Assembly: GCA_963575745.1 (NCBI GenBank)
Contig: CAUYUJ010000225.1
Location: 62,001 to 126,000 of the forward strand
Length of the DNA: 64,000 nt
Direction of reading: 5' to 3'
Source of the DNA: Prorocentrum cordatum
Lineage: Eukaryota
The notes beneath the pieces are model-generated. The model ran no database searches, was not told where the DNA came from, and worked only from the letters and a program-made list of their open reading frames with translations. Both the position numbers and the translations under genes were made by a program. Shown one piece after another: positions 12,485-62,281 of the stretch (within the stretch, counting starts at the first letter, position 1; the number at the start of each line of letters is the position of its first letter).

Positions 12485-12960
12485 ACCGACCGACCGACCG
12501 ACCGACCGCGGAGGAGAAGGAGGAGGAAGCGGGGGAGGACGAGGAGGACGAGGAGGAGAGCGAGGATGAGGAGGAGTAGGAGGAGGAGGAGGAGGAGGAG
12601 GAGACGGAAAGGAGAAAGAGCGAAGGGTGAGGTGAGGGGTGGAGTGAGGTGAGGGGTGAGGAGGAGGACAACGAGTAAGGAAAAACAACGCCAAACAAAG
12701 AAATCAAAACCCGGTCTCCGAACAGACGAAACAACAACCCTAAGGAAACACCTATATAAAAAGCAACTTGACTAATATCTCATTACTTACTCCACCTCTC
12801 CTCCTCCTCATCCTCCTCCTCCTCATCCTTCTTCTCCTCCTCCTCCTCCTCTTCCTCCTCATCCCCCTCCTCCCAGCTCATCCTCCTCCTCCTCCTGCTT
12901 CTCCTCCCCCTCCTCCTCCTCCTCCTCCTCCTCCTCCTCGTCCTCCTCCGCCCCCGCCTA
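12485..12960. repeat. (CCGA)n, (GGA)n and (TCC)n low-complexity tract
   Basis: Visible simple repeats. Confidence 0.9.
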
Positions 12961-13411
12961 AAGGAATGCCGGGACGTTGGGGAAGCGCACGGGGAAAAAC
13001 ATAATCCAAAGCGTTGGTAGCAGGAAGCTTTGGAAACCCATTGGAACAAACAAAGAACACACACACAACATCCACAACGAATGCGAGGTTTCCCTTCGGG
13101 TGTTTTCCTTCGGACGGGTGTCCCTGGGAATGTGTTTTTGGGCCCATGGGTTTCCTAAAGTTTCTGCCTCTAGCACGGCAGTTGCTTCGTTTGTTGTATG
13201 TGTGTGCCTTGTGTGTTTGTGGCTTCCCACCGCCAGCATACACGATGCATGTGTACATCGCCCACACGGCGACGACGGCGACTGCGGCGACGACAGCAAC
13301 GACGAAGACGACGAAGACGACGCTGATGGCGACAACGACGACGACGACGACGACAACGATGAGCGGAGCGCTTTCGGCCCGCCCCCCGCTAGGCCCGTAT
13401 ACCCACACACA

Positions 13412-13450
<39 letters not shown>

Positions 13451-13719
13451 TCGTACGCACCTCTCCGAGGGAGTAGAGCTCAAAGCCGATTAATTGAAGG
13501 CGGCGTCCGCGATTTTTCTGGCCGTTTCGCTGGGGGCATCTTCGAAATTCTGAAAATCGGTGGCACCCATCACGCAGATCGCGACGGAAGGGTCCAAAAA
13601 CACATGGGGATTTCAACATTCGAACATAAAATCTTCAAAAACACATTGTATTTTCAATGATTTTGACCCTGGTCCTCAGAGAATGGCGATTTCGCCTGAG
13701 ACATCCTCCCAAAATCGAG

Positions 13720-14138
13720 CCCCCACGTACCTTCTGGTACCCCAGACCCCACCTCGGAGTTTCTTGACAGCCTCCTCGAAACTCCTGGGGTTTTCTGTGC
13801 CTTCTGGTACCCCAGACCCCGCCTCGGAGCCTCCTGGGGGTCTCCTGGAACCGCCTGGGGCCTCCTGCGGCCTCCTGGAGCCTCTTGGGGTCTCTTGGAG
13901 CCCCCTGGGGCCTTGTGGGGCGTCCTGAAGCCGCCTGGGGCCTCCTTGGGCCTGATAACTACATGCGCACGCAGAGACACAAATCACACCCAACACATCA
14001 CACGCTAGACAAAAATAACACACACACACACACACGCACACACACACACAGACACACAGACACACAGACACACATACACACACACAACACCTGCAACGCA
14101 CAGAAAACACGCACAACACAGAGCACACATCACGCACA
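13720..14138. repeat. CCTCCTGG/GGGGCC minisatellite followed by (CA)n
   Basis: Visible short repeats. Similar sequence resumes at ~22380-22480. Confidence 0.7.
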
Positions 14139-15399
14139 TTTTTTTGTCTGCGGGGCGAGAGCGAAACTCCTCTGCTAAAAGCTAGGCGGGCGACGCGCAG
14201 CTTTAATCAAGGAGACAGGGCACAGGAAGGCGGGGCTTCAGGTGGCCAGAGCAGGTGGAGCCCGGGATGCAGGCGGTGCCGAAGAGCTTGCGCGGGAAGA
14301 AATACGCCGCTGACGAGAACCGGGGGCGAAAACCCGGAAGGCGAAATAGATGGTGTAGCAGTCAGCGGCGCGTCGCGAGCACCAACATCAAGCACAGCGG
14401 GGGAGGACGCGCCACTTGACCAGGTCGACGCCCAGGAAGGAGAAGAACACCAAGAATGCGATGAGCAACGTTGTGCCACCGGATGATGCGGAGGAGGCCC
14501 AGGAAAAAGAAGAACACCACGAAGGCGAGGTGCATCGTTGTGCCACCGGGTGATGTGGAAGAAGCCCTGGGTGGTAGTCCAATCCACGACAAGGTAGTAG
14601 CCTGCTTGAGGTGCGGCCACGGACGAGGGGGCCGTACATGACCGACAGGGTGTCGGTGGAGTGCAGGGAGAAAACCAGCCCTGCACCGTCAGCGCGTGGA
14701 GACGGGCAGCAACCACACACGATGCACTGACATCTGCATGCCGAGGGCCGGGCCTGAGCCGCGCAGCGCCATGGCGAGCGGGGCCGCCGAGGCGGCAAGG
14801 TGCAGCGCCCAGCACCGGGCCGAAGCCGCGCAGCGCCGGGCGCTGCCGCCATGGGAGGGTGGGAAGGGAGCGGGGGGGGAAGAAGCCAACAGGGAGGAGA
14901 AAGGCCGGCGCGCCACGCCAGCCGTCGTCGTGCCAGCCCGCGCCGTAAGTGCTCACGTGGGGGGACTGGGTCCCGATGGGTACAGGTAGGACACACGGTC
15001 CCAGAACATGTTAAAGACAGGTGAAGGGGGGGGAGCAGGTACAGTCGGAGACCAGGCGGATCAGCAAGCGGTCGCTGCGCGTGGGCCGTGCACGTCACAA
15101 GTGCTGCGGGGGTACTGGTAGGGGGGGAAAGGAAGACACGCGCTCCCAAGTCAGGTGAATAGGGTGGGGGAAGGGAGCACAGATGGTGGGGGTGGCCAGT
15201 GGTGGGTAGGACCTTGACCTTGCCGCAAGTTGCGGGAGCGTAGGAAGGCAGTCGCGTCGCGCGAGCAGGGGGACACACGGTCCCAAGCCAGGTGAAGAGG
15301 GAGGGGGAAGGGGGAACAGGTGGTGGGCGTGGCCAGCAGTGGGTAGGACCAGGACTTGGCGCACGTTGCTGGGAGCATGGAAGCGCCCGCGGCGTGCTG

Positions 15400-18300
15400 T
15401 GTCAGCAAGGGGAGGCCCGGTCGCCGGCTGGGCAGCGCCTAGTGCGCTTTCCGGTCCAGTTGTCGTTGTACCCAGAGCTGCGTGCCCGGTCGTCTCCGCG
15501 CCCATCACCTTTGGCGACCTTTCTTTTCCTCTGGGCGCCCTGGCACAGAGCCTTCTCACGATCCCTGTCCACGTGGACGCCGGTGTTGCGAGACCACGCC
15601 TCCACGTGATGGTTGCCGGTGTCCATGTCTTCCAGGAATTTGTCGATTATCCAGCGTTGCCAGCGGTTCGGGTCGAAAGCGACCTGGTCTTTGGATTTGC
15701 CCTTGCCCTGCTCCTTACACATATGCCTGCGCCACGAGTGCCAGGCTGCGTTGAAGTGGTATCATCCTTCTGCCTGCAGGCGTGTGATTCATGTCTCGTG
15801 TGGGCGGCGCTGCCAGCCGACGCGGAAGATTGTCCCTGGGCGGCTGGGGTCAGGGTGGTGGCGGTCATCCCTGTGGTAAGAGCTGCGCGGTTCTGGCTGG
15901 CGCCAGGGGGTGCTCCCTGTGCCCCTGCCACTGTCGTGGTCCTGATCCCAGTAGCGCTCCCTGGTTATGTCCCAGTCGTTGGCGTCGTGCTTGCGCCACG
16001 GTGCCCCCGCTGCGCCCTTGTTGCGGTCGCGGTCGCGGTCGCGGTCGCCCTCCCCAGCGCGGGTCGGGTCGCTAGTCTCTCTGGACGCGCGCCTTGCCGC
16101 AGTCTCGCACGACTCTCAGGCGACTGGCTCCCGCGCCCTGCCGCGCAAGTGCTCTAGCTCGTGCGCAGGGAGGGGGGTGAGTGCTGGGCGTCGGTCTTCC
16201 GGGCCTTTGGACCTGGTCCGCGCGCGCAGCGCCCGGCTGTCGGCAGCGGCCGCCAGGAGCGCGCCGGCAGGCTGGGTCTGGTAGGTACTGCTTGAATCGC
16301 GCTCGGGACTGCTGCGTCGTTCGCCACGAGGACTCGTCTTGGCTTGGCCCTCCTCGACTGTGTCGGAGTCTGAGGATGAGGAGACCGTGTGGACCGTGCT
16401 TAGGGCCTCTGCGAGGCTCAGCTTCTTCTCTTGTTCCTGGTCGTCGTTGGTCAAGTCGGGGTCCTCCTCCTTAGGGGGCACAAGGGGCGCAGGTTCGTAG
16501 GTGGGATCTTGTGTGTCTGCACGCGGCGCGCAAGGTTCGAGCTTGGAGTCGGCCTGCGCCCTTCTGGGGACGTCACTTTGTCGCCCCCGATGTCGGCGCC
16601 GAGCCTGGGACTGGCGGGGGCCGCTGGTGCCTGCGCCCCGTGCACCTCGCTGTGGGTTCTGCCCAGGAAGGCTGCTGCCCGGGGCGCTGCGTCTCCGCGG
16701 AGGACGTTCGCGCGTAGCGTCCTGGCACTGGTGCCCCATGCGTCCAGCCACTCGCTGCCGATCTGGACGAACAGGGTCCGCCCGTCCTGTTCGCGGGCCA
16801 AGACGTTGAGGACAGGTCCGAATACCGCTCCGTCCAGGGGCCGCGTCGACAGGGGCTCGTTGCTCTCCGCCGTGCTGAACCATCTGGCGCGGGGGCGGTG
16901 TCGCCCCTGATGACCGCGTAGTCGCCGCCCTGGATGCACGGGCTGCCCGTTGCGAGCGGGCAACAGGAGCCCGTGATGGGCGTGTCCGGGACTCGCCCTT
17001 GCTGCCGCTCGCGGCTGCTGGGTTCCGCGCACTTTCCGGGGGGTTCACCGCGCCGACGGCCGGTGGCGCCCCGACGGACTTGGTAGCTGTAGGTCTTGTG
17101 GCGGGCGGGGCCAGCGCCGGCTGGTCGCCGCGCGGAGTGGGCGGGAGTGAGTCGCCACCGTGAGTGGGCGGGCAGGGTGTCAGGCGCCTTTCCTTGGCGG
17201 GTCTTGGGCACTCAGCCTGGTTGGAGGCGTGGTCGGGGCGCGCGCCCGCTCGGGGGGCGGTGTGCTGCCGGGGCTCGCTGCTGGACGTGTGCCCGGTGGT
17301 TGGCTGGGCTGAAGCCGTGGCGCTGGGGTCTGCGTGCCTGGCCCCACGGCTGCGCGCCTCCTCGTCACCTTCGTCCCTGATCTGTGCCGCCACTTTCGCG
17401 TGCGTCTCCCCGTCCGCCGGCTGCCGCTCCCAGGCGAGGTGTTGCCGCTTGTCCTTGGGAGGTGGCGGGAGTGAGTTGTGGAGGCGCTCGTGGTAGATGC
17501 GCGCCTCCTCGTCCCAGGCAGCAGCACGTCGCTGCACTTCCTCCTGGTTGGGGCGTGCTGCGACTTCTGGCGACGAGGCGGGGATGCCCGGTAGTCTGGC
17601 TCCAACGCCAGGGTACACGTCAGGGCCATACCTTTCGAGTGCCTGCTTCACTGCTGACGGGGCCATGTCCCATTGGTGGGCCAAGCACCCCTTGCAGCAC
17701 CAGCCCGCGTGCCAGCGCTTTGCCAGGAACGTCTCCCTCATTAGTTGCATGGGTGGGAGCCCGTGGACCAGGCCAAAGCCGGCGCGGAGTCCTCCTGTGT
17801 CAGCGGCGTGCCCATGCATGCCAGGGTAAGCCTGCCCTGGTCCCCATTCGTGCCCCTCTATGCCCGGGGGGCAGCCGTCGCATCGCCAGATGCCGACATT
17901 CTTCTCGTGGAAGTGGGAGATCAGGCGATCGTCATTCGCGTTGCTGGCTGGGGGGGTGGTTCCAACATTAAGAGAACTCAGGTCGCCTTCCAGCGGGGCC
18001 AGCAGCTGGTCCAGGGGTGTTGGGGCCGTGGGTGTTCACGTCGGACACAGTCCCGGCAGGGCGCGCGTTGTGCGCACAGGCATGTCGTCGGGGCGGTCGT
18101 TGATCCAGTCCTTGAAGTCCACGTCGTCTGGAATGGGCTGTCGCTCTGCCATGGCCTTCGTGGTCCAGCAGAAGATGCGCAGCAGGGTGGGGTCCCTTCC
18201 TTGGTAGTACTCCGTCAGCCTGTTGACCGTGCTGGTTTGGCGGATCCGCTTGCTGACGTAGGCGCCTTTGTCGTGCTTGAAAGGGCCGCGTAGGCGCCCT

Positions 18301-21300
18301 TGGCAATAGAAATCGGCCTTGTTCTGCTCCTTCGCCCACCGGGTCTCGGTCGTCGATCCGCGGGGGCCCTAGCGTCACTCCAGGGCGTGGCCCGGGCGGG
18401 GCGGGCGCGTCCAGGTGCAGGCGCGTGTGTGAATGCCGTCCACCTATCCAGGTGACGCTGCTTGTCTGCTTAGTCGGGTCGTCGGCGGGGCATGGCGAGG
18501 CCGATGTCGGACCCAAGCGCGCCAACGTAGAGTGCGCATGCGGCGCGCTCCTGGAACGCCAGGGCTGACAGGTCGGCGGTAGACGCGGTGCCTTCGATGA
18601 CCGCGAGGGTGGCCTGGAGTGGGAATTTCCTAGCCACGAAGTCCTTTCAGGCCGCGGGGCAGTTCGCACTCTCGGCCCGGGGGTGGCGGCGGGCGACCAT
18701 GACTAAGCGGGATACCGCGGTGATCAGGAGCTCCAGCGCCGAGTGCAGCTGCTTGAAGTGCTTCCACTGTAGTCCGAACGGTGCGCCTAGCTGGTCGCGA
18801 GCAGTCTGGTCGCGCGGGCGGTGCGGCTCGCACAAGCCAAGGATGGCCTCGATCACGTCTCCAATGCCCTCGGCGCCCCCGGACGGATACAGGCAGGTGC
18901 GCGATTCGCGTTGCATGGGCAGGGACAAGGCGAGGAGGATCCTGGCCTGGATGGCGCCCAGAGTCGCGCCGGTGCTGTCCAGGAGGCCGTTGAGAACTGT
19001 GGCCTGGCGCCCCTTCGGGCCCATGTCGCAGAAGGCTTGAAATACTGGCGGTGTGGGTGGCTCCTTGTGTCCTTGTGCCTTCGGCACTTGCAGGTGGATG
19101 GCTGCCAGCATTTGGGTCTGCGCCTGGGGGCGTCTGCGGGGATGCAGGCTTCCTTAACGTGCCACGCTGTCGGCATATTCGGTCGGTCCCTTCGGGGCGG
19201 GATCAGGCTGGGGCCGACTGCGCGTGCGTTGTCGTCGTCCGCGACTCCGAGTCCTATAGCCCACATGATGGTCGCGAAGACCGCCGCGTAGACCAAGTTG
19301 CCGGCGTCCAGTCCTACAAGTGCAGAGCAGAAAAAGAGGTACCCGTTCATGCTCCATCCTTCCCGTCCTGTAGGCCGGGGTCTGTTGGCTGATCCGAAAC
19401 GCCGTGCCGGTGCGGATGCAGCCCGAGGCACCATAGTAGGCAGGGTCCGAATGCTGGGCAGCCTGGTAGTCTCGCCGCTGCAGCGTTGACGTCGTCCTCC
19501 AGGTCCTTCCAGTTTTGGTCGGCAGGGAGCGGTAGGTCGGCGCGCGCCGAGAATCCAGCCTGTTGAGCCTGACGGGCCTCGATCACTTCCTTCTCCTTTC
19601 GTCTGCGTTCGGCTTCCGCCAACGGCCGGGCCTTCTCCTCTGGGTTGGCGGTCTCGGGGATGTCCTCCTCTAAAACCTTTGAGTCAGCCGTGGACTGGCG
19701 CGGGGATCCGCCCCGGTTGATGTGGAATTCGAAAGCGAGGTCTGCCTTCTGGGCCCAGGTGCTCAGGTGATGGAATGCAGCGTCTGTGGCCGTGCGGAAC
19801 ATCCTTGCGCCCGCGGTCATGATAAGGTTGCATTGTTGGCGCGTCAGCCCCACGTCGACGCGGTGCTGGTCGTCCACGTGGCCCCAATTAAGGATGGAGT
19901 TGGCCCGGGTGGTCATTCGGATGACGACGGAGGCCTCTTGCCCCTGGGCGGCGTCGATGGCGGCGACGCGGATCGCCTCGCTTTCCAGGAGGTCTGGAAA
20001 CAGGTTTGCGATGCCACTGAAGCGTTCGCTCAGGCCGTTTGCCGCCGTGGCGCGATTGATCTACGTCCCTCCTGTGGGCCCCTGCCCCGCCCCCGTTGGC
20101 GCAGGGGGCCGGGGCCGCCCGTGTTCGTCTCGGATCCTTCCCCTTGCGCCGCCCGCGAGCAGCGTCTGATGTCGTGGGCCGTGCAGTGGTTGCCTGCCAG
20201 CGCGGGGGTCAGCTGGAGCTTGTACGCCGACAGTGCGAGGATGGTGCTGTTGGTCCTTCTTACCCATGGTACGAGGGCCTTCACAAGGGCAACCACTGCG
20301 CGCGCTTCGTGGGTGTTGGCGCAGCCGCCCTAGATCGTGGACTGAACCTCTTGCGAGGGGATGTGAGCAAGTATGGAGCGATGCCGATCGTAGACGGCGC
20401 CGCCGATTCCCTTCGGGGCCATGCACGCTGCGTTGCTCTGGAATCCGCCTGCGGCGTCGATCAGGGAGTCGTCGGGCTCGTAGTTGCCGTCCTCGTTCCT
20501 TGCTGCTTCGTCTTCTTGGTCGGTCAACGGTCGTGCGAGTGGCCACCCCAGTCCTTCGGCGCATGGTCGCTGTAGCGTGGGGTCCAGGATGGCGGAAACC
20601 AGCCTGCCCCTGTGGAACGTGAGCGAAGGCCATGCGAGCAGGGGCGGATGGATCCGATAGCACCCCTCCAGAGTGACGCTGCACTCGGGGATGTTCCCTA
20701 TGGCTGCCACGTACTTGGCGAGAATGGACATTCCTAGCCCCCAGCGCAGTGCCTGCTGGGATTTGACCGTCGGGCACAGCTGCCGCTCGTCGCCGAAGAG
20801 GACCGTTCTGGCACCGCATCTGACAGCGTGGTTCAAGGACATGATGGCCATGGGCTCGGACGTTTGTCCTGCCTCGTCGAGGAGACATCTGGGGAACTTC
20901 TTGTCCCAGAGGTCGGCCCCCGCCTCGCGCGTGGCCAAACTAAATTTTGCCTCTGTCGCGACTCCCTCTCGGAACTTGCGGAACCAGCTCGCGTGCCCCG
21001 TGGTGACCTCGCCCTCCGATATGGCGTGCACATAGGCGTACTTGGCGGCGGGGGTGGTCGTGCCACGCTGCCCTTGACCTTGTCCTCATGTGCGAGTCGC
21101 GCGGCCATGCGCGGGAACGGGTCTTTGTTGGCTGGGTTCAGGTTCTTTCCAATTTGCTCTGCTGCCAGGTTGTCCATGGATCCGCCGGTGCCGCCAAAAC
21201 ACCCCACGCCCCGCCCTGGGGCGAGGCGCGACATGTAGGCGTCCGCCACGCAGGCCGCGACCTTGGTCTTCCCGGTTCCGGGAGGCCCGTGGCACAAGGG

Positions 21301-22300
21301 AAGGAGAGAGTTCTGGGTCGCAAGCACGCAGCGTCGTTGGGCGTCGCTGGCGCGGTGCAGGTTACAGATGTGCTCCAGGTGTTCCTCCTTAGGAGCCGGC
21401 AACAGTCGTTGTAAGACGCTCCCCGGGAAATCCTCCGCCTGCTGAGCCGTCAGTGCGGGTGTGCCCGTGCGCGGGTTGGCGCTGGGTTGGTCGGGGTCGT
21501 CGATAGCGCGCTCCAGTGTTACCGAGGCCTGCGCCAGCAAGAGATCTGCCGCTTCGCCCTGAGCCGGCGCGGCCCGGGCCCCGGCCTTGCCGTCGCAGTC
21601 CTCGCGCCGAAAAACGAACGCCCAAACGATGGGCGGGAGGGCAGTGCCCCAGAGGGCCGCCCTATCGCACCCGACTGAAAATAATTCCCGTATCGCCGCG
21701 TTGACCCTGTTGAATTGGGCCTTCCTCGGGGTGCGATCGACCGTGTAGTATTGTTGGCCCGGGCTTGGCGTTGGAACTGTGCCGTCGTTGTCGTGAAAGG
21801 GTCCGTTCCTCCTGGCGTTGTAGTGGGCCAGCGCGATTCCCGCGGGGCAGCTCCGGTCTGCGCCCGAGACCCCGGCGCCGGGGGCGGGAGGCCAGACGCG
21901 GGTCATCTCTGCCAAGAAACCCACCGTTGGCGAGGACTTGGAGATTAGGAAGGGGTTCGGGGTGCCTGCCGTCACGTCGCGCTCTGTCCACTCCATGGCC
22001 CACTTCGTGTCCCAAACCAGCAGGTAGTACTCGCTTTGGCCCTGTTGTTGTCCTTTGAGCCGCTCTTGCCGGTGGTGCCTACTCAGGATCTCCTGGCACT
22101 GCTCGTTCGGCTGGAAACAAGTGAGGATCTGCACGTTCTTGCTAGCGATGACTTGCCAGGACGTGGTGGAGCCGTCGTTGGGCGGCTCCACGTCCGCGTG
22201 GAACTCGGTGAAGAAGACCCTCCTTAGCAGCTAAAGAGCTCGGGCAAGGAGCTAAAGTTTAGTTCCTCGCCGTGTAGTTGCAGCCGTCGAGCCCAGTCGG
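15400..22300 (-). pseudogene. Large intronless decayed ORF (~2300 codons): Upf1/DNA2-like SF1 helicase, RNase III-like motif, CxxC region, RS/low-complexity tail
   Basis: Protein-like frames tile the interval through stops and frameshifts (20833-22191, 20330-21031, 20030-20296, 19347-19916, 18647-19111, manual 18360-17820, 16116-17819, 15402-15722). Confidence 0.7.
19800..21350 (-). pseudogene. Upf1-like (SF1B) helicase domain
   Basis: ASDAQ (Q motif), HGPPGTGKT (21265-21290), LLDEAGQ (~20864-20884), FGDERQLCP, CYRIHP, LSAYKLQ, SIDAAQGQEA (~19935-19960), RVDVGLTR. In-frame stop at 20330 and two frameshifts. Confidence 0.92.
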
Positions 22301-22929
22301 TCGGCGGCGGGACTGCCCCTGGGACTGGTCCTGGGCAGGGGCGCGCTGCCGAGCCGCTTGGGGGCCATGTACCAAGGGGCGCGCACATCACACGCACAAC
22401 ACTCACACTCCCGGGGCCTCCTGGGGCCTCTTTCGGTATCCAAGTCGGGCCTCCTCTGAGGTTTCCTGGGGGCCCCTGGCACGCGCGTCGCAGGGCGCGG
22501 CAACCCCACTTGCGCCCGAGCGCGACCTCGATCTGAGATTCTCCTGCGTTCACCTCCTGCCTCTTCCCCTCTCTCAAGCGCGCCCTGGCGGCGCCGCCCC
22601 AGCTTCTCCTTCTCCATCTCCGATCCTGCAGTCATGGTGTCTTCCTGCTTCAAACGCCCTTTCATTTTTTGATATGAACCTGGGCACACACGTGCCACTT
22701 GCATATATAGCTCGCCCCCCCCCCCCCCCCCCCGCGCCTCCAAACGACGGACTGGGTGGGTGGGTGGGGGGGGGGCATCCTCCGCATCTTCCTCCTCTCC
22801 CCATCCTCATCTCCTGATCTCCTCATCTTATCTCTTCTCCCCCCTCCTGCTCCATTGAGTCTAACTGACTTGCGAGCGCATGGGGCCTCCGACGAGCAAA
22901 CGCTGGGAGCGCGCGGCAGGGGCTGGCCT

Positions 22930-23819
22930 TGACAGCGCTGTGTTTTCCAGCTTGTCCAGCTTTTCCTAGAGACTGCCCCGGTGAAAAGCGCTGCGTTTTC
23001 CAACTCTTCCAGCTTTCATCGCAACGAAACCATTGAAAAACGCTGTGCTGTCCAGATTTTCGAGCTCCTCTCAGTTGAAAGACGTTGTATTTTCAAGCTT
23101 TCCAGCTTTTCCCAGAGATTGCCCCGTTGAAGAAGGTTGTGTTTACTAGCTTTTCCAACTTTTCCCAGAGACCCCCCCGTTGAAAAAAAACGCTGTGTTT
23201 TCCAGCTTTAGCAGGGCAATGCGCGGGAGAAGCTAGAAAAATCTCGAAAAGCAGGAACACACAGCGTTTTTCAATGGGGTAGTCTCTGGGAAAAACAGGA
23301 AAGGCAGGAACAGCTGGGCAATGCAACCTTTTCCCACGGGGTCGTCTCTGGGAAAAATGGAAAAGCAGGAGAAGCTGGAAAGCACAACGTTTTTCAATGG
23401 GGTCGTCTCTGGGAAAAAAGGGAAAAGCAGGACAAGCAGGAAGACACAGCGTTTTCCAATTGGGCAATCTCTGGGAAAAGCTTGACAAACTTGAAAGCAC
23501 AGCGTTTTTTTTCCAACATGGTAATATCTGGGGAAAGCTGGAAGAGCAGGAACAACAATGTGTTTCAATGGGGTATCTGGGAAACGCTGGAAAAGCAAAA
23601 TAAGCTGAAATCACACAGCGTTTTTCAGCGGGGTAGTCTCTGGGAAAAGCTGGAAAAGCAGGAAAAGCTTGAAACGCAAACGTTTTTCAATGCGGTAATC
23701 TCTGGGGGAGGCTGGGAAAACAAACGAAGCAGGAAAACGCAGGAGCATGAAACCATGGCGTTTTCAATGGTTTAGCTGTGGCGAAAGCTGGAGACGCTGG
23801 AGAAGCTGGAAAACATAAC

Positions 23820-23820
<1 letters not shown>
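22930..23820. repeat. Minisatellite (TTTTCCAGC / GCTGGAAAA) that switches orientation near 23210
   Basis: Units read ttttccagct..gaaaaacgctg before ~23210 and as the reverse complement after it. Followed by a long T run and a G run. Confidence 0.8.
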
Positions 23821-23879
<59 letters not shown>

Positions 23880-23980
23880 TGTGGGGGGGGGGGGGGGGGG
23901 GGGGGGGGGCTCATGGAAAAGCTGGGGAGGAGGAGGAGGAGGAGGGGGGGGAGGAGGAGGAGGAGGAGGATCGAGGCGGA

Positions 23981-26900
23981 TGATGCCCGCGGGGTAAGGC
24001 AACTGCGCCGATCCACAAGTACTCCCGCGCGCGCCCCCGCGCGCGCCCTCGCCTCGGCGCGGTCGCGCGCCCGAGGCCGTCAGGCAGGCCTCGGCCTCAC
24101 CTCGTGCAGCCCTCAGCAGCCTCGCCACCTTGGCGGCCATGCCTGGCGAGCAGCTTCTCTCCCGCGCGCGGCGCCTCGGCCTCGGCCGCGCGCCGCCGCC
24201 GCCCGCAGCCCCTGCTTCGCTTCGAGCAGCAAGGCCACCTGCAAGCGGCTGGGGCCCCTCCGGCATCCTGGCCTCCTCGGCCGCACTTCCGCCTCCCACG
24301 GCCCCTGCTTCGCATCGAGCAGCAGAGCCACCTGCAGGCGGCTGGTGCACCTCCTGCGCCCTGGCAACCTTGGCCTCACGCTGCCGCGGCGGCGCCGCGC
24401 TGCACGCGCGCCTGCTGCGCCTCTGGGGCGCGCCCCCTGCCTTGCCGCCCTCGGGCGGCTCTCCTCTCGTGGTCTCCAGCAGCGCGTCCACGTCGACTTC
24501 CTCCGCGCCGCTGGTCTGCACCTTGCTCACTCCTCCTGGATCACCTGCTTCGACCATCCCCTGCGAGCTGCCTCCTTCATCATGTGCAGGCAGGTATGCA
24601 GCCGTAGCCTCCTGCACACCCGCGCCCGCTCCTGCCGCCGCGGCGCTGGCCTCCGCTGCCTGGTCTGCCCGTCCGCCAGCCACCTCCGCGTCAAGCAGCT
24701 CCCCGCAGAAGTCGTCGAGGCGCGCGATGACGAATGGGACCACCCTCGCTGTGCGGGGCGCGAGCCCCCGCTGCAGCTTGGCCACCACCGCGCTGCCCGA
24801 CGCGGAAGGCGGCATCTTGCACTCTCCGCTGAAACCGCATACCCTGGCGGCTCCCGCGATCCCGCAGAGGCGGCAGGCGACCAGCGGCATCCTGCGCTCC
24901 AGCTGCTCATCCACGGTGGGGCGGATGACCACCAGGTCGTGGGCGGTGAGCCCCTGCTGCCTCAGCCTCCTGTTGGCCTTCGCCGCGTCCGCCACGATGG
25001 AGCCTGGGCACTCGCCCACTCTCTCCTCCGACCTGCAGACTTCGCACCACCTGGGCTGCCCAGGCAGCCCGCGCCAGGTGCAAGCCACCTGCGCTGCTGC
25101 TGTGCGCCTCTCAGGAAGAGCCCGCTGCTGCTTCACCTTGCCGTGCGTGGTGTCGCTGCCGTCAACCCAGGTGCCCACAGCCGAACACCACAAGGCGACC
25201 CTGTCCACGAGGCCTCGGCTTTGCGCAAGGCGCAGGCGCTCCTGGCCAGGCAGGCGCCCAGCATCGGCTGCCGCCTTGGCCGCGCGGTCGGCCAATCGAT
25301 TGCCGTGCCAGTCACGGTGCGACACCTTCCCAGCCGCCACTTGCTGCCTCGCGCTGTGGCTGGGCATCCACCTCAGTTGCACCTCGCCGCCCAGCCCTCC
25401 ACGTTCATCCAGCAGCGCCCAGGCCTGCCTCCACAGGTGCGCCCAAGAATGATCACTGGCCGTCGTACGCGCGCGCCCCGCCTGGTAGGAGCCGTCGAAC
25501 ACGTACTTCGAGTCCACAACCAGCACAGTGTCACCGTGCCCGTACCTCTGGGCCATGATCACTGCCGTGAGCTCGCTGCCGTTGATGTCGACGTACGGGC
25601 CAACCACCTGTCCAGCGACCGACGCCCTGTACACATCCTCACCCTGCATCAGCGCGACGGCACTCCAGCCCGCCGCCGTGAACTCACCGTAGTCCGCCTC
25701 GAACACCGAGCCGTCCAGGAAGAGCTCCCCAGCTGGCAGAACGCCCTCCTCATGTTCGCCCTTCCAGCATACCAGGTCGCTGGCCTGAGGCTTGCGCACC
25801 CCCCCCGGCACTGGCCACAGGCACCTCCCCAGCAGCAACTGGATCCCAGGCTGCTGCCATCTCCTCCTGAGGTCTTCGAGGTCTGGGGGAAGGGCCAGCA
25901 CCTCTCGCAAGCTAGCACAGTCACAATGCCTGTGCACCAGGGTGCCCTCCAAACCGCACCTTAGACACCCCGCGCAGTTGGCCAGCCCTTTCTCCGCCTT
26001 CCGTGCCTGCGTCCACTGCCCGTTGACGATCAGGGACCGCAAGTACGCCATCTCGCGCTGCGTGAGCCGCGCCTTGACTTTGCCAGCCCCTCCTCCCTGC
26101 AGCCCCTCGGGGTGGAGCACTCTCCCTGTGGTGGTCAGCCTCACCAGCGGCTCGAGCTCCCCGCCTGCTGCCAGGTGGCTGCACCCTGGGTGCTTGCTGA
26201 CTTGCCTCCACTGCCACCTCAGCACCGCTCGCATGACCAGCTTACGCACGACCCACGGCGCTACGTCGAAAGGCGCGATGGTGTTGCCGTCGTCCATGAC
26301 CCAGCCGTTGGCTTCTTGCACCTCCCACCCGATTCTCCGCAGCGACATCACCGTCGCAGCGCATGGCCCCTGCACGTGAGCCCAGGTGGTTGCCCTTTTG
26401 TCCTGCAGACCGCGGACAACCATGTGGAAGGGGCACCCAGTTCTCCCACACCGCCCGCAGCAGCATCATCACGGGCATGCAGGTCGCGTCGATGTTCGGG
26501 TCGAGCCCAGGCTGAAGCATCAGCCCCAGCGACCTGCTCTTGCTGGCCGTGGTGTTGGAGACCGCCACGAACGACATAGTCCTGGCGCGGTCCAGCTCAC
26601 CCATCGCGCACCCCGTGATGGCCGTGCCGTAGCCGATGCTAGGGTGCAGCCCCGTCTTCACAACCCTCTTAGCTGCGATCCTCTTGGCCTTCACCACCTT
26701 CAGCACCTTGAACTTCCTCAGCCTTTGCCCCGCCTGCTGGTAGCGGCCCTCGCGCACCGCGCGCCCTAGCCTCTTGCCCCCGCTGAAGTCACCCCCCAGG
26801 TTATGCTCCTGCCGCACCGCCAGCACCCCCAGCGGCTTGCGCAGCCTCTTCTCCAGCTCCTGCCTCGCCTCAGGGAAGTTGGCGAGGGCTCTGGACTTCT

Positions 26901-29326
26901 TGACCGCGACCGCCAGGTCCACCTCGCTGAGCAAGACCTTGAAGTGCCCTGGCCGCTGCCGTGATGTCCCCGACGACGCGCTGCATGCCCCCAACCCTCC
27001 TGATGATGATGTCATCTACGACCACCGAGAGGGCCACCGTGGGCACCAACGCCTGCAGCCTGTCCAGCGGCTCCAGCAGCAACATCTTGAGCATGAGCGT
27101 TGCCAAGCAATCTCCTGGCAGCACAGCCTGCTCCGTGTAGATGGCGTCGCTGACCGCTTCGTCGCGCGCCAGCCACCTGGCACCTGGCCGACCTGTACAG
27201 ACTGACCTGGAGCTTGAGCTGCCACAAGGGGAACCCCGTCTTCGTCGCTGCACGAATGAGGTGCCCGTGCTGCACCTGCTCGAACGCCTTGAGCAAGTCC
27301 AGGAGCACCAGCGCGGCGACCCAGCTGGAGGCGTCGCCAGTCTCACGCCCTTTGGCCGTGGCCCACTCGCACTTCACCGCCTGCTGCCAGACCGCCCTCT
27401 GGCAGCCCTTCCCTCTGGACGCCCAGAAGAAAGGCCGATCGTTCCTGCTCTTCCACTCGACTGCCGCTGGCCTGCGCCGCCTCGTCTGGATCCTCGCGAG
27501 CACGTGGGCGATGGCCACCGGCCTCACTCCTCCTAGCCTCTTGGCCAGGAAGACGATATTGTTGTTCAGCTGCGGCCACTCCGCCGCCATCTCTACGGCC
27601 ATCACGACGTCGATGAGCGTCTCGAGGCCCTCGTCACTCAGCTCCAGGAACTGCCGCGGCTTGACTGCCTCGAAACCCGCCGCGGTGCCCTTCCTGAACG
27701 AGCGCAGCACCGCCTTCATCTCCTCCACTGTCCGCCTGCCAGGCCTCACACCCAGATCGCCTGGCCATGCCGGCTCCTCATGGGCGCACTGCACCCTCCA
27801 AAGCTTGCCCCATTATTGCTCGAGGGCGTCCAGCTCCTGGCAGAGGCTGTGGGGGCCTGCCGCGGAGCTGCAGTCGCTGCCTTGCCAGCCGACAGCCACT
27901 CTCGTGACTGCATGCTGCCCTCCCGCTCCTCCCTTCAGCTGCTTGTCGACCCATTCGTCGAACTGCCTGCCGCGCTCGTCGGTGTCACGCCTGGCGAGCT
28001 GACTGGCGCGCACCTTGGCCAGCCTGGCCAGGGTCAATAGGGCCACGGGGTCCCAGCTCGCAAGCCCTGCATGCTGCAGCACCCTCAGCCACCTGCCCGC
28101 CTCTGTGCTGTCATGCTTGCCTCCCAGCTCACTCTCGGCCTGCTCTTGCCACAGCCTGACCCTCTGAGGCGCCAGCTCCGCCAACCTGGGCAGGAAGCCG
28201 AGCGCATCAATCCGACCTCGGGGCGCTTGTGCCCTCGCCGCAGCCTCCAACGTGTTTGCCACCCTGGCCATCCACGCTGCTTCAGGCGTGTGCCTCGGCG
28301 CCCGCGGCTCCTGGATCCCGCTGCGTTGCACCCTCTTGGTGGAGAAGCCCTGCGCCCTGCCCGCGTACCTGTCCCTCTGGTCCTCCAGCTGGTACACGTC
28401 CAGCCACTCCTCCTCAGCGCACTCCAGGAAGGTGGCGAAGGCAGCGGTGGGCGCGTCCTTGGCGCGAGTGCCCTCGCACTCCAACTCGCCTGCACCGCCG
28501 CCTCTCCTCCAGCACCTCCTCGCGCCTCCACGGGAGGCGGGCGGCCTGTCTTCCCCAGAGGCTGGGGGGCCTCGCGCATGCTCCTTCAGCCGCTTCAACC
28601 TGAAATGGACTACCCGCGATTACATACGGTGCCTGGCTCGGATGCATGCTGCCAGTCCCAGCATGGGGAGCAGCTCCTGGGCATCCTTCATGCCCCCGCT
28701 GCTCCGCCACCTCCTCCTCCTCCTCGGGACGGCGGCACCGTGCTGGATGCACCGTGCTGGATGCCAGTCGGCACCGTGCTGGATGCAGCACTTGCTTAGG
28801 TTGCGTCCAGAGGCTGCTGCGGCCAGCGTGGGCGGGGGCGGCAGCGCGCTACCGAGGGGGCCCCACCTTGCCCTCTGGCCCTCCAGTGGTTTTCCGAGGA
28901 TGCGATTGGCTATGGCAGCGCCTCGGGGCCACCGCCTTCCCTCCGCACGCTGCTGCTGGCCAGAGTCACCAGTCCAGTCCTCCTCCTGTGGTATTTCGAG
29001 GATGCCGTTGGCAGCGCCTCGGGGCCGCCACCTTCCCACTTCGCTTGGCCTCCAGCTGGCGGCGGCGCCGCCCTCCCGCGGCCTTGTCTGCTGGCTCACC
29101 GCGACGACCAGCGCGTGTGCCACTGCTGAGTGCCTCGCGCCTTTCTCAGCCTCATGTGGTTTTTGTTCGAGGATGCCCTTGGCAGCGCCTCGGGGCCACC
29201 ACCTTCCCTCTTCTGGTGGTCGCCCATCAGCCTCGGCGCCACCCATCTGCGGCCTCGCCTTCTGGCCTTCGGCTCCGACCAGCCCGCGCTCTGCCTCTTC
29301 GCGGCCAGCGCCTGCCTCCCCCTCGA

Positions 29327-29369
<43 letters not shown>

Positions 29370-30406
29370 TTTATTCTTTTTCCGAGGATGCCCTCGGCAG
29401 CGCCGCGGGGCCACCACCTTCCCTCTGCGCGCTCCTCCATGCGCGCCACCTCTGCCTCTTGTTTTTTTTTTTTTTTTTCGAGGATGCCCTCGGCAGCGCC
29501 TCGGGGCCACCGCCTTCCCTTCGCACTCCTGCGGTCCTCAGCCTCGTCGCCCTCCTCTAGCGCCCTCGGCTCACCAGCAGCTGCTGCCAGGCCTACTGTT
29601 AGCTGCTCCCTCACGCGCTTCCTCGCCCGCACCCAGCTTCTGCGGTGATCCCTTGCACAGCATCCGTGCGGCCTTGCCTCAGGAAGCGCCCGAGGCCTCT
29701 GCACCACCCCCATGGCGCCCTCCATCTTCTGCTTGGCGACTTCGGCGATGACTGGCGCGTGCGGTTACACAGGCGAACCCGCCACCACCTGAGCTCCCTG
29801 CGCGAGCAGCCCGCGCGACACAAGGAAGTAGTCGATGATCCGCCCTGACGCCATGCAGGTGGGCCCCGCGGGTCTGACCACGGACGCGTCGAAGAGCGCC
29901 AGCACGCCGCCTGCCTGCAGCTCGTCATCACTGAGATTCCAATCCCCGCCGATCACGTACTCTCTGCGGCAATGCCTGAGCCTCCTCGCCAACAATTTGA
30001 GGCTCGACATGTTGCTGAGGTTGAGGCCCTCCCCCGCCTCCAGGTACAGGTTGGCAATCAGAAAGCCGCCGCCACAGATGCCCGAGACCCAGTGCACGTG
30101 TACTCTGCCGTCCACCAACACCGCCGCCTGGTGGTCCTGGACCTCCGCCATCCCGTGGCAACGTCACACCATGGTGATGGGCCCCCCAGTGCTGAGCCCA
30201 CCTGACTCAGACCTCAACGCTGGCGAACTCCTTGCCCGCCATCCTTGACCACGGAGTTGAGCCTCAGCATCTCCGCTCCTCCCCTCTAGCAGCCTGGTCT
30301 CCTGCACCAGGATGGCGTCGCAGCTCTGCACCTCCTTCACCATCAAGCACTTGCCCAGGCTGCTGAACGCGTTGACATTGACCGTGCAGATCCTCCAGAC
30401 GCCCAT
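23981..30406 (-). pseudogene. LINE C ORF2 (EN-RT-RNase H), frameshifted
   Basis: Fragments 30164-30466, 29765-30151, 27813-28598, 27012-27794, 26242-27015, 23772-26423. Confidence 0.92.
28840..29519 (-). repeat. Array of a ~41-nt hairpin repeat with variable spacers inside LINE C
   Basis: CGAGGATGCCCTCGGCAGCGCCTCGGGGCCACCGCCTTCCC variants start at 29479, 29383, 29168, 28997 and 28895, with a remnant near 28840. Confidence 0.9.
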
Positions 30407-31651: not shown

Positions 31652-31673
31652 CTTGAGCCAAAATGGCTGCGGA
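31652..31673 (-). other. Genomic copy of the dinoflagellate spliced leader (DinoSL)
   Basis: Minus strand reads TCCGCAGCCATTTTGGCTCAAG against the consensus DCCGTAGCCATTTTGGCTCAAG, one mismatch. Confidence 0.96.
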
Positions 31674-34900: not shown

Positions 34901-36030
34901 TCGTCCCACTGGAGCTCGACCGCCACGGCGGCGCCGCGTACTGACGGGGCCGACAAGCGTCAAAGCTCTTTCGCATAGCCATTGTGCGGAAGGATACGTG
35001 TCTCCAGTCGCCGAAGCAACTTTAGGTCCACATTGTGCGCAGTGGCGTTCGTGGCGCGCTCCCGAGGGTCGACGACAATGTAGCGTGGAGGCGCAGTGTC
35101 AGCACAGCTCCAAATCCGCCGGTACATCGTGCCAGGGACTCGGATATTGGAAGGCCGCAGCTCGCTACTGAATCGCAACTCCCGTTCCGAAGTAGTGCTT
35201 TGAATCTCGTGCACGGCGAAAGAGAACAGACTATTGCAGCGCCTGCTGATGGCTGAGAACCCCGTCGATCCGAGGTGCATTGGAAATCGCGTCGTGTATT
35301 GGGCGTCCCTATTCGTCCTTGTACAGCCACGTAGTGCCGAACGTTTTCATGAGAGCGCCTGCAGGGGGCTTGTAGTACTTTGTGAAATCCACGTAATGCT
35401 TCCCGGCGCCGCAGCAGAAACCATCGCCTTCGCAGCGGGACAGCTTTGTGGAGCAATGGGTGCATGTGTGCGTCATGGCACCCAAATCGATTCGGGAAAA
35501 GGCGCCCTCCGGGCGTCCTAGTGGACAGCAGTGTCGGCATATCTTCTGGTTGCGGGCGTGCCACCTGGGAGCAAAATCGCCCAGCGGCAATGTTTCTCCG
35601 CATCGAGCACAGACACAAAATGAAGCCGGCTGCGCAACACATGCCTTGCAAATTCTCTCGGTTCTGTGTCGTTGTCGAACTGCGAAGTCCTCGGGGGAGA
35701 GCTCCTCGTGACAGCGAGTACAGGGCAAGGCCACCGCAGGTCTGTTTTGGAGGGCGGCGCATGCTCTGCAAATCGTTGTGGCTTTGTGTAGCTGAGTGGG
35801 TGTGAAAGAGTCGCGCGGAAGGTCGGTCGTGCACACCAAGCACGTGAAATATGCCCGTGTGGCGCATGATTTGCAAGTCTTCGTGGCTTTGTGTAGCTGG
35901 GTAGGTGTGAGCGAGTCGCGCAGCAGGTCGGCCTCGCAGACAGAGCACGTAAAGCATGTTGCCAGCTTGGGGCCCATGGCGCAAAGCAAATGATCACGGT
36001 GTACATGTGCCCATCCCAAGAATGGGAGAT
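31938..36030 (-). mobile_element. Defective Helitron (zinc fingers, HUH Rep, truncated Pif1 helicase)
   Basis: GAMTHTCTHC..FCCGAG, YEPLSYPLWFP, GRLVNEWLV, PGSPR..GPPTFFITLTCNPYWPE, DRPDIVVRVF, IEYQRRGLPRSH, YLFKYLYK. Helicase motifs HGPAGRGKS, WDEWP, GDFRQIPPVV. A GC hairpin at 31947-31968 precedes CTTG|T. The 5' end was not located. Confidence 0.92.
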
Positions 36031-36319
36031 CTACGCACTTCGAGCCAACGCGTCGGAGTGTACTGAAAATGAAGCAACATGGTGGAAGGGGAAGCAGGAG
36101 AAGCGGAGGATGTTGAGGACGAGGTGGGAGGGCTTGAAGGAAAGGTGAGGATCATGTTTTAGTTCCCAGGGTCGCTGAAGGAAGAGTATAAGAAGGCGGT
36201 GACGGGGGAGAGAGGAGAGGAGGAGGAGGACCAGGAGAGTGCGGCGGGGGAGAAAGGTGGACAGAGGGAGGAGAAGGAGGACGAGGAGAGGGAGAAAGAG
36301 GAGACAAAGGAGGTGGGCT

Positions 36320-38200: not shown

Positions 38201-38330
38201 GCTTGTGATAAGAGTATGTGGTCTGGGGCTTTTGACGAGGCAGCGGAGGAGGAAGACAACGAACTACAGGAGGAGCAAGAGGAGCAGGAGGATAAAGAGC
38301 CGGAGGAGGAGGAGCAGCAGAAGGCGGTTG

Positions 38331-61288: not shown

Positions 61289-61388
61289 NNNNNNNNNNNN
61301 NNNNNNNNNNNNNNNNNNNNNNNNNNNNNNNNNNNNNNNNNNNNNNNNNNNNNNNNNNNNNNNNNNNNNNNNNNNNNNNNNNNNNNNN
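61289..61388. other. Scaffold gap (100 N)
   Basis: N run. Confidence 1.

Positions 61389-62242: not shown

Positions 62243-62281
<39 letters not shown>

What the first reader, a model, noticed from the sequence alone, without database searches (positions are those of the whole stretch)
15400..22300. Upf1-like SF1 helicase joined to an RNase III-like motif in a giant intronless ORF
Seen: a full Upf1-type motif set, followed ~1 kb downstream by GAEGIGDVIEAILGL (~18836-18875). Further on are W-R-C-D-G-C ... W-C-C-K-G-C and an RS-rich tail. No RT, integrase or transposase was found. Known: GD-x-x-EA-h-h-G is the second RNase III catalytic signature; Dicers use SF2 helicases, while MOV10/SDE3/Armitage/ZNFX1 are SF1 silencing helicases without RNase III. 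Inference: this could be an unusual RNA-processing or silencing protein, or cargo of an unclassified mobile or viral element. Caveats: I could not find the first RNase III signature (ERLEFLGD), and this copy is pseudogenised.
Basis: partly seen in the sequence, partly recalled or inferred. Interest (0 to 1): 0.75.

Follow-up and report, generated by a model that had tools for sequence, protein, structure and literature searches.

The report
Broken helicase gene of giant retrotransposon
This is a decayed copy of a much-repeated giant helicase gene in a dinoflagellate-type genome, probably cargo of a LINE jumping element, and its supposed RNase III motif is a conserved short motif inside a helical domain that otherwise shows no likeness to RNase III.

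Summary
The sequence features are real. On the minus strand, 22218-15471 is colinear with an intact 2945-aa relative (P0002). It carries a full Upf1-type SF1 helicase motif set, GAEGIGDVIEAILGL at 18833-18877 and a CxxC pair. It is dead: 8 frame changes, 6 in-frame stops, no counterpart of the relative's first 313 residues or of residues 1882-2539.

The RNase III reading is not supported. The motif GDxxEAxLGxCxP is strongly conserved (D 16 of 18, E 18 of 19), but only those ~10 residues resemble RNase III. Pfam gave 0 of 18 members. PDB sequence and profile searches, two AlphaFold models searched with Foldseek and VIA-align, and an unfiltered HMM search gave nothing. A weak hhalign match (probability 5.5%) is matched by 82 of 150 block-shuffled RNase III profiles. 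No first signature exists.

The stretch is a high-copy repeat: 1469 diverged contig pieces in one public run cover all of it. It lies 1.5 kb downstream of, and on the same strand as, endonuclease/RT/RNase H ORFs that begin at a dinoflagellate spliced-leader relic. It is therefore most likely the 3' accessory gene of a large LINE, or a 5'-truncated copy of one.

This scan has already noted the same helicase-bearing giant LINE on other DNA of this genome. One of those notes favoured an RNase III fold; my tests contradict it.

The parts
15471..22218 (-). Decayed, 5'-truncated copy of the giant helicase gene. It is colinear with P0002 residues 314-1881, 2540-2605 and 2807-2919.
   Evidence: tblastn gives 9 segments at 32-50% identity, with 8 frame changes and 6 in-frame stops. 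P0002 residues 1-313 and 1882-2539 have no counterpart at E<=10.
19836..21288 (-). Upf1-like SF1 helicase core, from motif I (GPPGTGKT) to motif VI (VGLTRQ), split over three reading frames.
   Evidence: Motif coordinates; AAA_11 and AAA_12 above cut-off; NAM7/Upf1 are the best solved relatives.
19225..19340 (-). Hydrophobic segment GYLFFCSALVGLDAGNLVYAAVFATIMWAIGLG, shared with P0002.
   Evidence: tblastn segment 19404-19075, 47% identity. It does not align to the first RNase III signature (probability 0.09%, P 0.57).
18494..19069 (-). Conserved alpha-helical domain of unknown function. Family consensus: LL..REPR...P.G....GD..EA.LG.C.P...RD.FG..WGL...F..LH..LE.LI...A.LV..AH.H....CP.
   Evidence: 47% identity to P0002 residues 1356-1547, with an in-frame stop at 18647-18649; 19 family hits in 1.84 billion proteins; alignments A1 and A3.
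18833..18877 (-). GAEGIGDVIEAILGL, the motif read as the second RNase III signature.
   Evidence: Conservation in the family: G 18/18, D 16/18, E 18/19, A 18/19, L 17/20, G 17/20, C 17/20, P 19/20.
17685..17888 (-). CxxC...CxxC module (WRCDGC ... WCCKGC, 62 residues apart). A first such module further upstream (around 18170-18310) has lost cysteines in this copy.
   Evidence: P0002 and P0009 each carry two CxxC...CxxC pairs at the aligned places. The window reads YCQGRLRG and LRIFCW where P0002 has YCQGCLRG and WWCLGCW.
15402..15821 (-). C-terminal conserved end of the protein (FNAAWHSW...), with two in-frame stops.
   Evidence: tblastn to P0002 residues 2807-2919, 32% identity.
23821..23909 (-). 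A58 preceded by C27 on the minus strand, between the RNase H ORF and the helicase copy. A 62-nt minisatellite (23246-23724) follows downstream.
23775..30163 (-). LINE-type ORF series upstream on the same strand: Exo_endo_phos (29768-30163), RVT_1 (27015-27812) and RNase_H (within 23775-26465).
   Evidence: Pfam: RNase_H E 1.6e-6, 28.8 bits, above its cut-off; RVT_1 E 0.017 and Exo_endo_phos E 0.0057, both below cut-off.
31652..31672 (-). Relic of the dinoflagellate spliced leader (1 mismatch) at the 5' end of the LINE ORF series.
   Evidence: 1 match in the window; 0 of 100 shuffles gave any.

Best explanation
The stretch is one dead, 5'-truncated copy of a repeated retroposed sequence. Its intact form encodes a single very large protein, 2945 aa in the relative P0002.

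That protein is built, in order, of: an N-terminal region; a Upf1-type SF1 helicase; a hydrophobic segment; a ~110-residue alpha-helical domain carrying GDxxEAxLGxCxP; two CxxC...CxxC modules that look zinc-binding; and a long C-terminal region.

Shown here: the domain order, the family-wide conservation of the motif, the decay of this copy, its high copy number, and its position 1.5 kb downstream of endonuclease/RT/RNase H ORFs on the same strand.

Inferred: the gene is the 3' accessory ORF of a large dinoflagellate LINE, and this copy arose by target-primed reverse transcription that stopped early. In intact copies I expect the helicase to unwind or strip the element's very long RNA (or RNA:DNA hybrid) during retrotransposition, with the helical and Cys modules holding nucleic acid or partner proteins.

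The motif is not evidence of an RNase III nuclease. It resembles the second RNase III signature over about ten residues and nothing else does.
For: Architecture: the window is colinear with P0002. The helicase families score above cut-off and Upf1/NAM7 are the best solved relatives.

Motif: it is conserved in the family.

Repeat family: in run X1, 1469 contig pieces cover 30 of 30 bins. Their identity classes are 100 at >=99%, 228 at 95-99%, 621 at 90-95% and 520 under 90%. 608 of the 871 places with another letter are transitions.

Copy-specific indels: other copies differ by indels of 1, 3 or 4 nt at 21060-21064, of 9 nt at 19070 and of 1 nt at 19156 and 19210 (table 4). These lie at or near two of the window's frame changes.

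5' truncation: shown.

LINE context: on the same strand lie the spliced-leader relic (31652-31672), Exo_endo_phos, RVT_1 and RNase_H, then the helicase.

Against: An A58 tract and a minisatellite lie between the RNase H ORF and the helicase copy. The spliced-leader-to-A58 unit could therefore be a separate processed retrocopy, with the adjacency due to chance or nested insertion.

RVT_1 and Exo_endo_phos are below Pfam cut-offs. I found no target-site duplication or clear 3' tail for the helicase copy.

No genome is held, so I could not examine other copies. The giant-LINE reading of the whole element rests on earlier, unchecked scan notes.

P0011 carries the helical domain with no helicase family hit. 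Three family fragments are labelled Pyramimonas sp. by their source, which does not fit a dinoflagellate-only element.

The function of the helicase in retrotransposition is pure inference.
Confidence: 0.55

Rival explanations
1. One reading: the GDxxEAxLG domain is a diverged RNase III-like nuclease fused to an SF1 helicase, giving an unusual RNA-processing or silencing enzyme.
For: The motif fits D-x-x-E-A-x-x-G exactly and its D and E are conserved (16/18 and 18/19). hhalign places it on the second RNase III signature with pairwise P 0.007, and 0 of 150 column-shuffled profiles reach that score. An earlier scan note on another copy favoured an RNase III fold (unchecked).
Against: hhalign probability is only 5.5%. 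82 of 150 block-shuffled RNase III profiles, which keep only local motifs, score as high.

An unfiltered HMM search gives at best 3.6 bits over 10-15 residues. Pfam matched 0 of 18 members at E<=10. PDB sequence and profile searches found no RNase III.

No first signature exists. The stretch where it should lie has no conserved acidic residues, and the upstream LGLDAGN segment does not align (P 0.57).
Confidence: 0.1
2. The helicase is a cellular, multi-copy dinoflagellate gene, not element cargo. This is one of its many processed pseudogenes, and it landed next to a LINE retrocopy by chance.
For: Dinoflagellate genes are commonly retroposed, and the window itself holds a spliced-leader relic. 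A58 separates the LINE ORFs from the helicase copy. P0002 is called as a free-standing ORF with its own start codon on a 12.6-kb contig.
Against: The copy lies on the same strand as, and close to, the RNase H ORF. It has a very high copy number with graded divergence. It has no poly(A) at its own 3' end. Earlier scan notes report the same RNase H-to-helicase order in several other copies (not checked here).
Confidence: 0.25
3. It is an endogenous viral element: the helicase and its companion domains come from an integrated virus.
For: P0002 has a weak Viral_helicase1 hit (E 0.014, below cut-off). Insect LINEs are reported to carry helicases of viral origin (PMC6338049, passages read).
Against: The helicase scores far better with cellular Upf1-type families (AAA_12 E 1.4e-25, IGHMBP2 family E 2.9e-29) and with Upf1/NAM7 structures. 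P0002 peptide patterns matched nothing in the IMG/VR viral contigs. The domain model has no match with E<=0.001 in the BFVD viral structure library. No polymerase or capsid gene lies beside it.
Confidence: 0.05

Closest known systems
Upf1/NAM7, Sen1 and IGHMBP2 (SMUBP-2): Upf1-like SF1B RNA/DNA helicases
   Same: Same helicase core. AAA_11 and AAA_12 score above cut-off and motifs I to VI are present. NAM7/Upf1 are the best solved relatives at E 1.2e-9. The IGHMBP2 family model scores E 2.9e-29 on P0002.
   Different: No CH domain or any other named accessory domain was found. The intact relative is 2945 aa, with family-specific modules on both sides. It is multi-copy and this copy is dead.
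SymbioLINE-Dnmt, LINEs of Symbiodiniaceae that carry a DNA methyltransferase (de Mendoza et al. 2018, PMC5890265; passages read)
   Same: A dinoflagellate LINE with Exo_endo_phos, RVT_1 and RNase_H domains plus an extra captured enzyme gene. The same three domains lie in the same order upstream of the helicase here.
   Different: The word 'helicase' does not occur in the main text of that paper; I did not read its supplements. No DNMT was found in this window. The paper says those elements lack poly-A tails, whereas an A58 tract follows the RNase H ORF here.
Insect LINEs (TRAS/R1 clade, Jockey family) with an SF1 helicase domain (Morozov et al. 2019, PMC6338049; passages read)
   Same: A non-LTR retrotransposon carrying an accessory SF1 helicase that is not needed for the basic copying reaction.
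   Different: There the helicase is of plus-strand RNA virus origin and fused into the polyprotein. Here it is of the cellular Upf1 type and sits in a separate giant ORF with further domains.
RNase III family (bacterial RNase III; Dicer and Drosha by recall)
   Same: The ten-residue pattern D-x-x-E-A-x-x-G of the second catalytic signature.
   Different: There is no first signature, no family-level HMM or profile match, and no structural match. The whole hhalign score is reproduced by block-shuffled RNase III profiles.

Membership tests
RNase III (PF00636 / PF14622) | Second catalytic signature D-x-x-E-A-x-x-G-A | tested here: met
   GDVIEAILG lies at 18833-18877. In the family, D is kept in 16/18 and E in 18/19. 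hhalign places the motif on the RNase III signature.
RNase III (PF00636 / PF14622) | First catalytic signature (E-x-L-E-x-L-G-D type acidic helix; motif recalled, and seen in the 31-sequence alignment) | tested here: not met
   The stretch that hhalign puts opposite the region after the first signature has no conserved acidic residues. The upstream LGLDAGN segment scores probability 0.09%, P 0.57 against the RNase III profile.
RNase III (PF00636 / PF14622) | Family-level sequence match (HMM or profile) | tested here: not met
   Pfam gave 0 of 18 members at E<=10, and nothing on the window piece or on P0002. My own RNase III HMM, run with filters off, scored at best 3.6 bits over 10-15 residues. 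hhalign gave probability 5.5%, and 82 of 150 block-shuffled profiles equal its score.
RNase III (PF00636 / PF14622) | RNase III all-alpha catalytic fold | tested here: inconclusive
RNase III (PF00636 / PF14622) | Mg-dependent cleavage of double-stranded RNA | not testable with these tools
   This needs a biochemical assay.
Upf1-like SF1 helicases (AAA_11 / AAA_12) | Walker A, Walker B (DEAGQ) and motifs III to VI in order | tested here: met
   Coordinates; the same motifs are present in P0002.
Upf1-like SF1 helicases (AAA_11 / AAA_12) | Pfam AAA_11 and AAA_12 above the gathering score | tested here: met
   36.8 and 41.6 bits against a cut-off of 27. P0002 scores 54.9 and 90.4 bits.
Upf1-like SF1 helicases (AAA_11 / AAA_12) | Open reading frame able to give an active enzyme | tested here: not met
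   The core is split over three frames and has an in-frame stop at 20330-20332.
Non-LTR (LINE) retrotransposon | Endonuclease, reverse transcriptase and RNase H encoded in order on one strand | tested here: inconclusive
   The order is correct on the minus strand. Only RNase_H passes its cut-off (28.8 bits against 25.8). RVT_1 has E 0.017 and Exo_endo_phos E 0.0057.
Non-LTR (LINE) retrotransposon | The helicase ORF is physically part of the same element as the RT | tested here: inconclusive
   The two lie on the same strand 1.5 kb apart, but A58 and a minisatellite lie between them. No other copy could be read, because no genome is held. Earlier notes claim the linkage (unchecked).
Non-LTR (LINE) retrotransposon | Many copies, commonly 5'-truncated and decayed | tested here: met
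   1469 diverged contig pieces cover the whole stretch in run X1. This copy lacks the first 313 codons of the relative.
Non-LTR (LINE) retrotransposon | Target-site duplication flanking the copy | tested here: inconclusive
   blastn of 22231-23000 against 12500-15400 found only simple-repeat matches. The copy's ends are not defined.

The most novel reading that the evidence does not exclude
The GDxxEAxLGxCxP helical domain, with its conserved Asp, Glu, Cys and His residues, is a new kind of metal-dependent nucleic-acid-processing module. It might be an extremely diverged half-site relative of RNase III. It works with the Upf1-type helicase as a retrotransposon-encoded RNA-processing machine, for example to trim or protect the element's very long RNA.
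Probability: 0.1. Interest if true: 0.8.

Novelty: new variant of a known kind. Interest (0 to 1): 0.4.

Why it matters
LINEs that capture host enzymes are known: DNA methyltransferases in Symbiodiniaceae and viral helicases in insects. A LINE that carries a ~2900-residue Upf1-type helicase protein with its own uncharacterised conserved domains would widen what retrotransposons are known to encode. It could also bear on how dinoflagellates copy very long element RNAs.

For this particular finding the main value is corrective. The attractive 'helicase plus RNase III' reading rests on a ten-residue motif and does not survive profile, shuffle-control or fold tests. This copy is also dead.

The helical domain remains a well-conserved domain with no known relative, and it is worth a structure.

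Tried and rejected
**Searches that gave nothing**
- No whole genome is held for the window, so I could not do a copy census.
- The search for homologous proteins with the 168-aa piece and 'longer' lengths gave 864 candidates, none significant. With alignment A1 it gave only 4 short proteins. With P0002 residues 1200-1900 it returned only P0002 itself.
- Viral contigs: A1 had no stretch conserved enough to search with. P0002 patterns matched nothing.
- Metagenome contigs: 439 pattern matches were found, none a relative. A degenerate DEAGQTSEP pattern gave 26 loci. Of these, 19 matched P0002 by tblastn (E<=1e-5), all within the helicase part only (residues 586-1144) at 24-48% identity; 7 did not match.

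**Weak or uninformative hints**
- ESM Atlas with P0004 gave weak hits (0.83-0.84, below the 0.9 level) to tyrosine-recombinase-type clusters. I looked for the recombinase residue pattern by eye and saw no conserved downstream Tyr, and neither fold search listed a recombinase, so I dropped the idea.
- ESM Atlas with the N-terminal 290 aa gave only unnamed archaeal clusters at 0.87-0.89.
- No RNA run was listed as a holder of the stretch, so there is no evidence on expression.
- Runs X2 and X3 held next to nothing.
- RNase III was absent from the Foldseek and VIA-align lists, and BFVD gave no match.

**Controls and dead ends**
- The search for related loci with E. coli RNase III returned only enterobacterial copies of 96% identity or more. 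That was useless for a profile, so I drew 30 diverse loci with the genome search instead.
- A search for direct repeats flanking the copy found only simple repeats.

**Literature**
- Four searches were run: 'Upf1-like helicase' + 'transposable element' + 'algae' gave 0 papers. dinoflagellate + LINE + retrotransposon + helicase + 'RNase H' gave 5 papers; by the listing and abstract starts none concerns such an element, and I read passages of only one (PMC6338049, on insect LINEs with viral helicases). AAA_12 + dinoflagellate + retrotransposon gave 1 paper, on sea-anemone small RNAs by its listing. 'Upf1-like' + LINE + retrotransposon + ORF3 gave 0.
Full report
**What is there.** The window is GC-rich eukaryotic DNA (56-70% GC in 2-kb windows across 14001-22000). 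No genome is held for it.

On the minus strand, 22230-15400 is a chain of stop-bounded reading frames, not one ORF. Their translations carry Upf1-type helicase motifs:
- GPPGTGKT at 21265-21288
- DEAGQ at 20864-20878
- FGDERQL at 20777-20797
- YRIHP at 20645-20659
- IDAAQGQEA at 19932-19958
- VGLTRQ at 19836-19853

Pfam AAA_11 (36.8 bits) and AAA_12 (41.6 bits) both pass the 27-bit cut-off. The nearest solved chains are NAM7/Upf1 (E 1.2e-9), then Sen1 and SMUBP-2. GAEGIGDVIEAILGL lies at 18833-18877, WRCDGC at 17871-17888 and WCCKGC at 17685-17702.

**Relatives and state of this copy.** An exhaustive phmmer search of the 168-aa piece that holds the motif, against 1.84 billion proteins, gave 20 hits at E<=0.001, 7 of them at E<=1e-10. 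One hit (P0015) is a Cys-rich low-complexity match. Most of the rest are fragments of 64-191 aa.

P0002 is an intact protein of 2945 aa, with AAA_11 and AAA_12 between residues 612 and 1114 and the motif domain at 1354-1494. tblastn of P0002 on the window gives nine colinear segments at 32-50% identity. Residues 314-1881 map to 22218-17511, residues 2540-2605 to 16882-16658, and residues 2807-2919 to 15821-15471. The frames are -2,-1,-3,-2,-1,-2,-3,-1,-3, and six in-frame stops lie inside the aligned parts.

Residues 1-313 and 1882-2539 have no counterpart even at E<=10. Cysteines of the first CxxC pair are lost. The copy is therefore dead and 5'-truncated. The 'RS-rich tail' is largely an out-of-frame reading, because the homology leaves that frame at 17511.

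**The motif is conserved.** In a 23-row alignment the counts are G 18/18, D 16/18, E 18/19, A 18/19, L 17/20, G 17/20, C 17/20 and P 19/20. The motif sits in a ~110-residue domain with the consensus LL..REPR...P.G....GD..EA.LG.C.P...RD.FG..WGL...F..LH..LE.LI...A.LV..AH.H....CP.

Rows left out of alignment A1 were P0013 and P0017 (partly out of frame) and P0015 (low complexity). A3 added the first 60 residues of P0013, P0021, P0022 and two more window pieces.

**Is it RNase III? Six kinds of test say no, or only the motif.**
1. Pfam gave nothing on the window piece at E<=10, no RNase III family on P0002, and 0 of 18 alignment members.
2. Against PDB sequences, phmmer gave 0 hits at E<=10. The A1 profile gave 3 hits, the best being interferon gamma at E 0.18.
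4. I built an RNase III domain profile from E. coli RNase III plus 30 diverse bacterial loci. hhalign of A1 against it puts GDxxEAxLG on ADxxEAxxGA, with score 24.2, P 0.007 and probability 5.5%. Controls: the reversed profile scores 11.5, and 0 of 150 column-shuffled profiles reach 24.2. However, 82 of 150 profiles shuffled in 12-column blocks do reach it (mean 24.9). The score therefore comes from the short motif alone, with no contribution from the rest of the domain.
5. hmmsearch with all filters off gave at best 3.6 bits, over 10-15 residues at the second signature. Reversed sequences gave at best -0.9 bits.
6. The hydrophobic LGLDAGN segment upstream was the only candidate for a first signature. 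It scores probability 0.09%, P 0.57.

The motif D..EA..G occurs 3 times in the six-frame translation against 1.37 expected. My tests contradict that.

**It is a repeat.** One public DNA run (X1) holds 1469 contig pieces that together cover all 30 bins of 15400-22300. Of these, 100 are at >=99% identity, 228 at 95-99%, 621 at 90-95% and 520 below 90%. 608 of the 871 places with another letter are transitions. Other copies differ from the window by indels of 1, 3 or 4 nt at 21060-21064, of 9 nt at 19070 and of 1 nt at 19156 and 19210. These lie at or near two of the window's frame changes (table 4), which suggests that the frameshifts are copy-specific decay.

**Context.** Upstream on the same strand, in order:
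- a Helitron fragment (Helitron_like_N, E 6.4e-29, 34162-34665; PIF1, E 9.4e-24, 32028-32693)
- a spliced-leader relic with one mismatch at 31652-31672 (0 of 100 shuffles match)
- Exo_endo_phos (E 0.0057, 29768-30163)
- RVT_1 (E 0.017, 27015-27812)
- RNase_H (E 1.6e-6, inside 23775-26465)
- C27 and A58 (23821-23909)
- a 62-nt minisatellite
- the helicase copy

This is the layout of a LINE with an extra 3' gene. It agrees with earlier scan notes that describe ~26-kb LINE copies in this genome with DNMT, RING, RNase H and a Upf1-like helicase ORF, and a 6.8-kb front-truncated helicase copy. Those notes are leads that I could not check.

The A58 tract cuts the other way. The segment from the spliced leader to A58 may be a separate processed retrocopy, with the helicase piece a neighbouring truncated insertion. 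I found no target-site duplication and no poly(A) at the helicase copy's own 3' end.

**Literature.** SymbioLINE-Dnmt elements have the same Exo_endo_phos/RVT_1/RNase_H ORF2 plus a captured DNMT. The word 'helicase' does not occur in the main text of that paper (PMC5890265, passages read). Insect LINEs with SF1 helicases of viral origin are described (PMC6338049, passages read). Four full-text searches found no paper describing a LINE with a Upf1-type helicase.

**Verdict.** The helicase call is right. What remains of interest is a conserved helical domain with no known relative, and two CxxC modules, riding with a Upf1-type helicase in a high-copy retroposed gene.

**Unexplained.** Three family fragments carry the source label Pyramimonas sp., and P0011 has the domain without a helicase.

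Noticed in passing
window 61389-64000 and 12558-15169; N run 61289-61388: The last 2612 bases of the window are 100% identical to 12558-15169, which is the DNA just 3' of the helicase copy. They follow directly on a 100-N gap. This is either a very recent ~48.8-kb duplication or an assembly redundancy. The identity runs to the window's end, so the second copy may continue into another helicase copy.
   Followed up: partly
window 31652-31672 (-): CCGCAGCCATTTTGGCTCAAG is the dinoflagellate spliced leader with one mismatch (0 of 100 shuffles match). It lies directly 5' of the ORF series with endonuclease, RT and RNase H. This suggests that a trans-spliced LINE transcript was reverse-transcribed into the genome.
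   Followed up: partly
window 32028-34665 (-): A Helitron fragment in several frames: Helitron_like_N (E 6.4e-29) and PIF1 helicase (E 9.4e-24). An Stc1-domain hit (E 4.8e-8) lies at 35312-36151.
   Followed up: no
window 23246-23909: On the minus strand, C27 then A58, followed by a 62-nt minisatellite (about 3.8 and 2.4 copies) of lower GC. All of this lies between the RNase H ORF and the helicase copy.
   Followed up: partly
window 15400-22300 (-): The hexamer CCTGGA, flagged by an earlier scan note, occurs 11 times on the coding strand of the helicase part against 2.6 expected (sd 1.6). In the RT/RNase H part it occurs only 5 times against 3.2 expected.
   Followed up: partly
window 46270-49371 (-): A long open frame with a kinesin motor domain (E 9.6e-69), presumably a host gene.
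   Followed up: no
window 36313-38307 and 40400-43000: Two satellite-like arrays. One has units of about 350 bp at 86-91% identity. The other has roughly 90-bp C-rich units at 73-79% identity.
   Followed up: no
proteins P0019, P0021, P0022: Three fragments of the motif domain carry the source name 'Pyramimonas sp.' (EukProt), a green alga, while the window bears a dinoflagellate spliced-leader relic. Either the family is wider than dinoflagellates or that data set is mixed.
   Followed up: no
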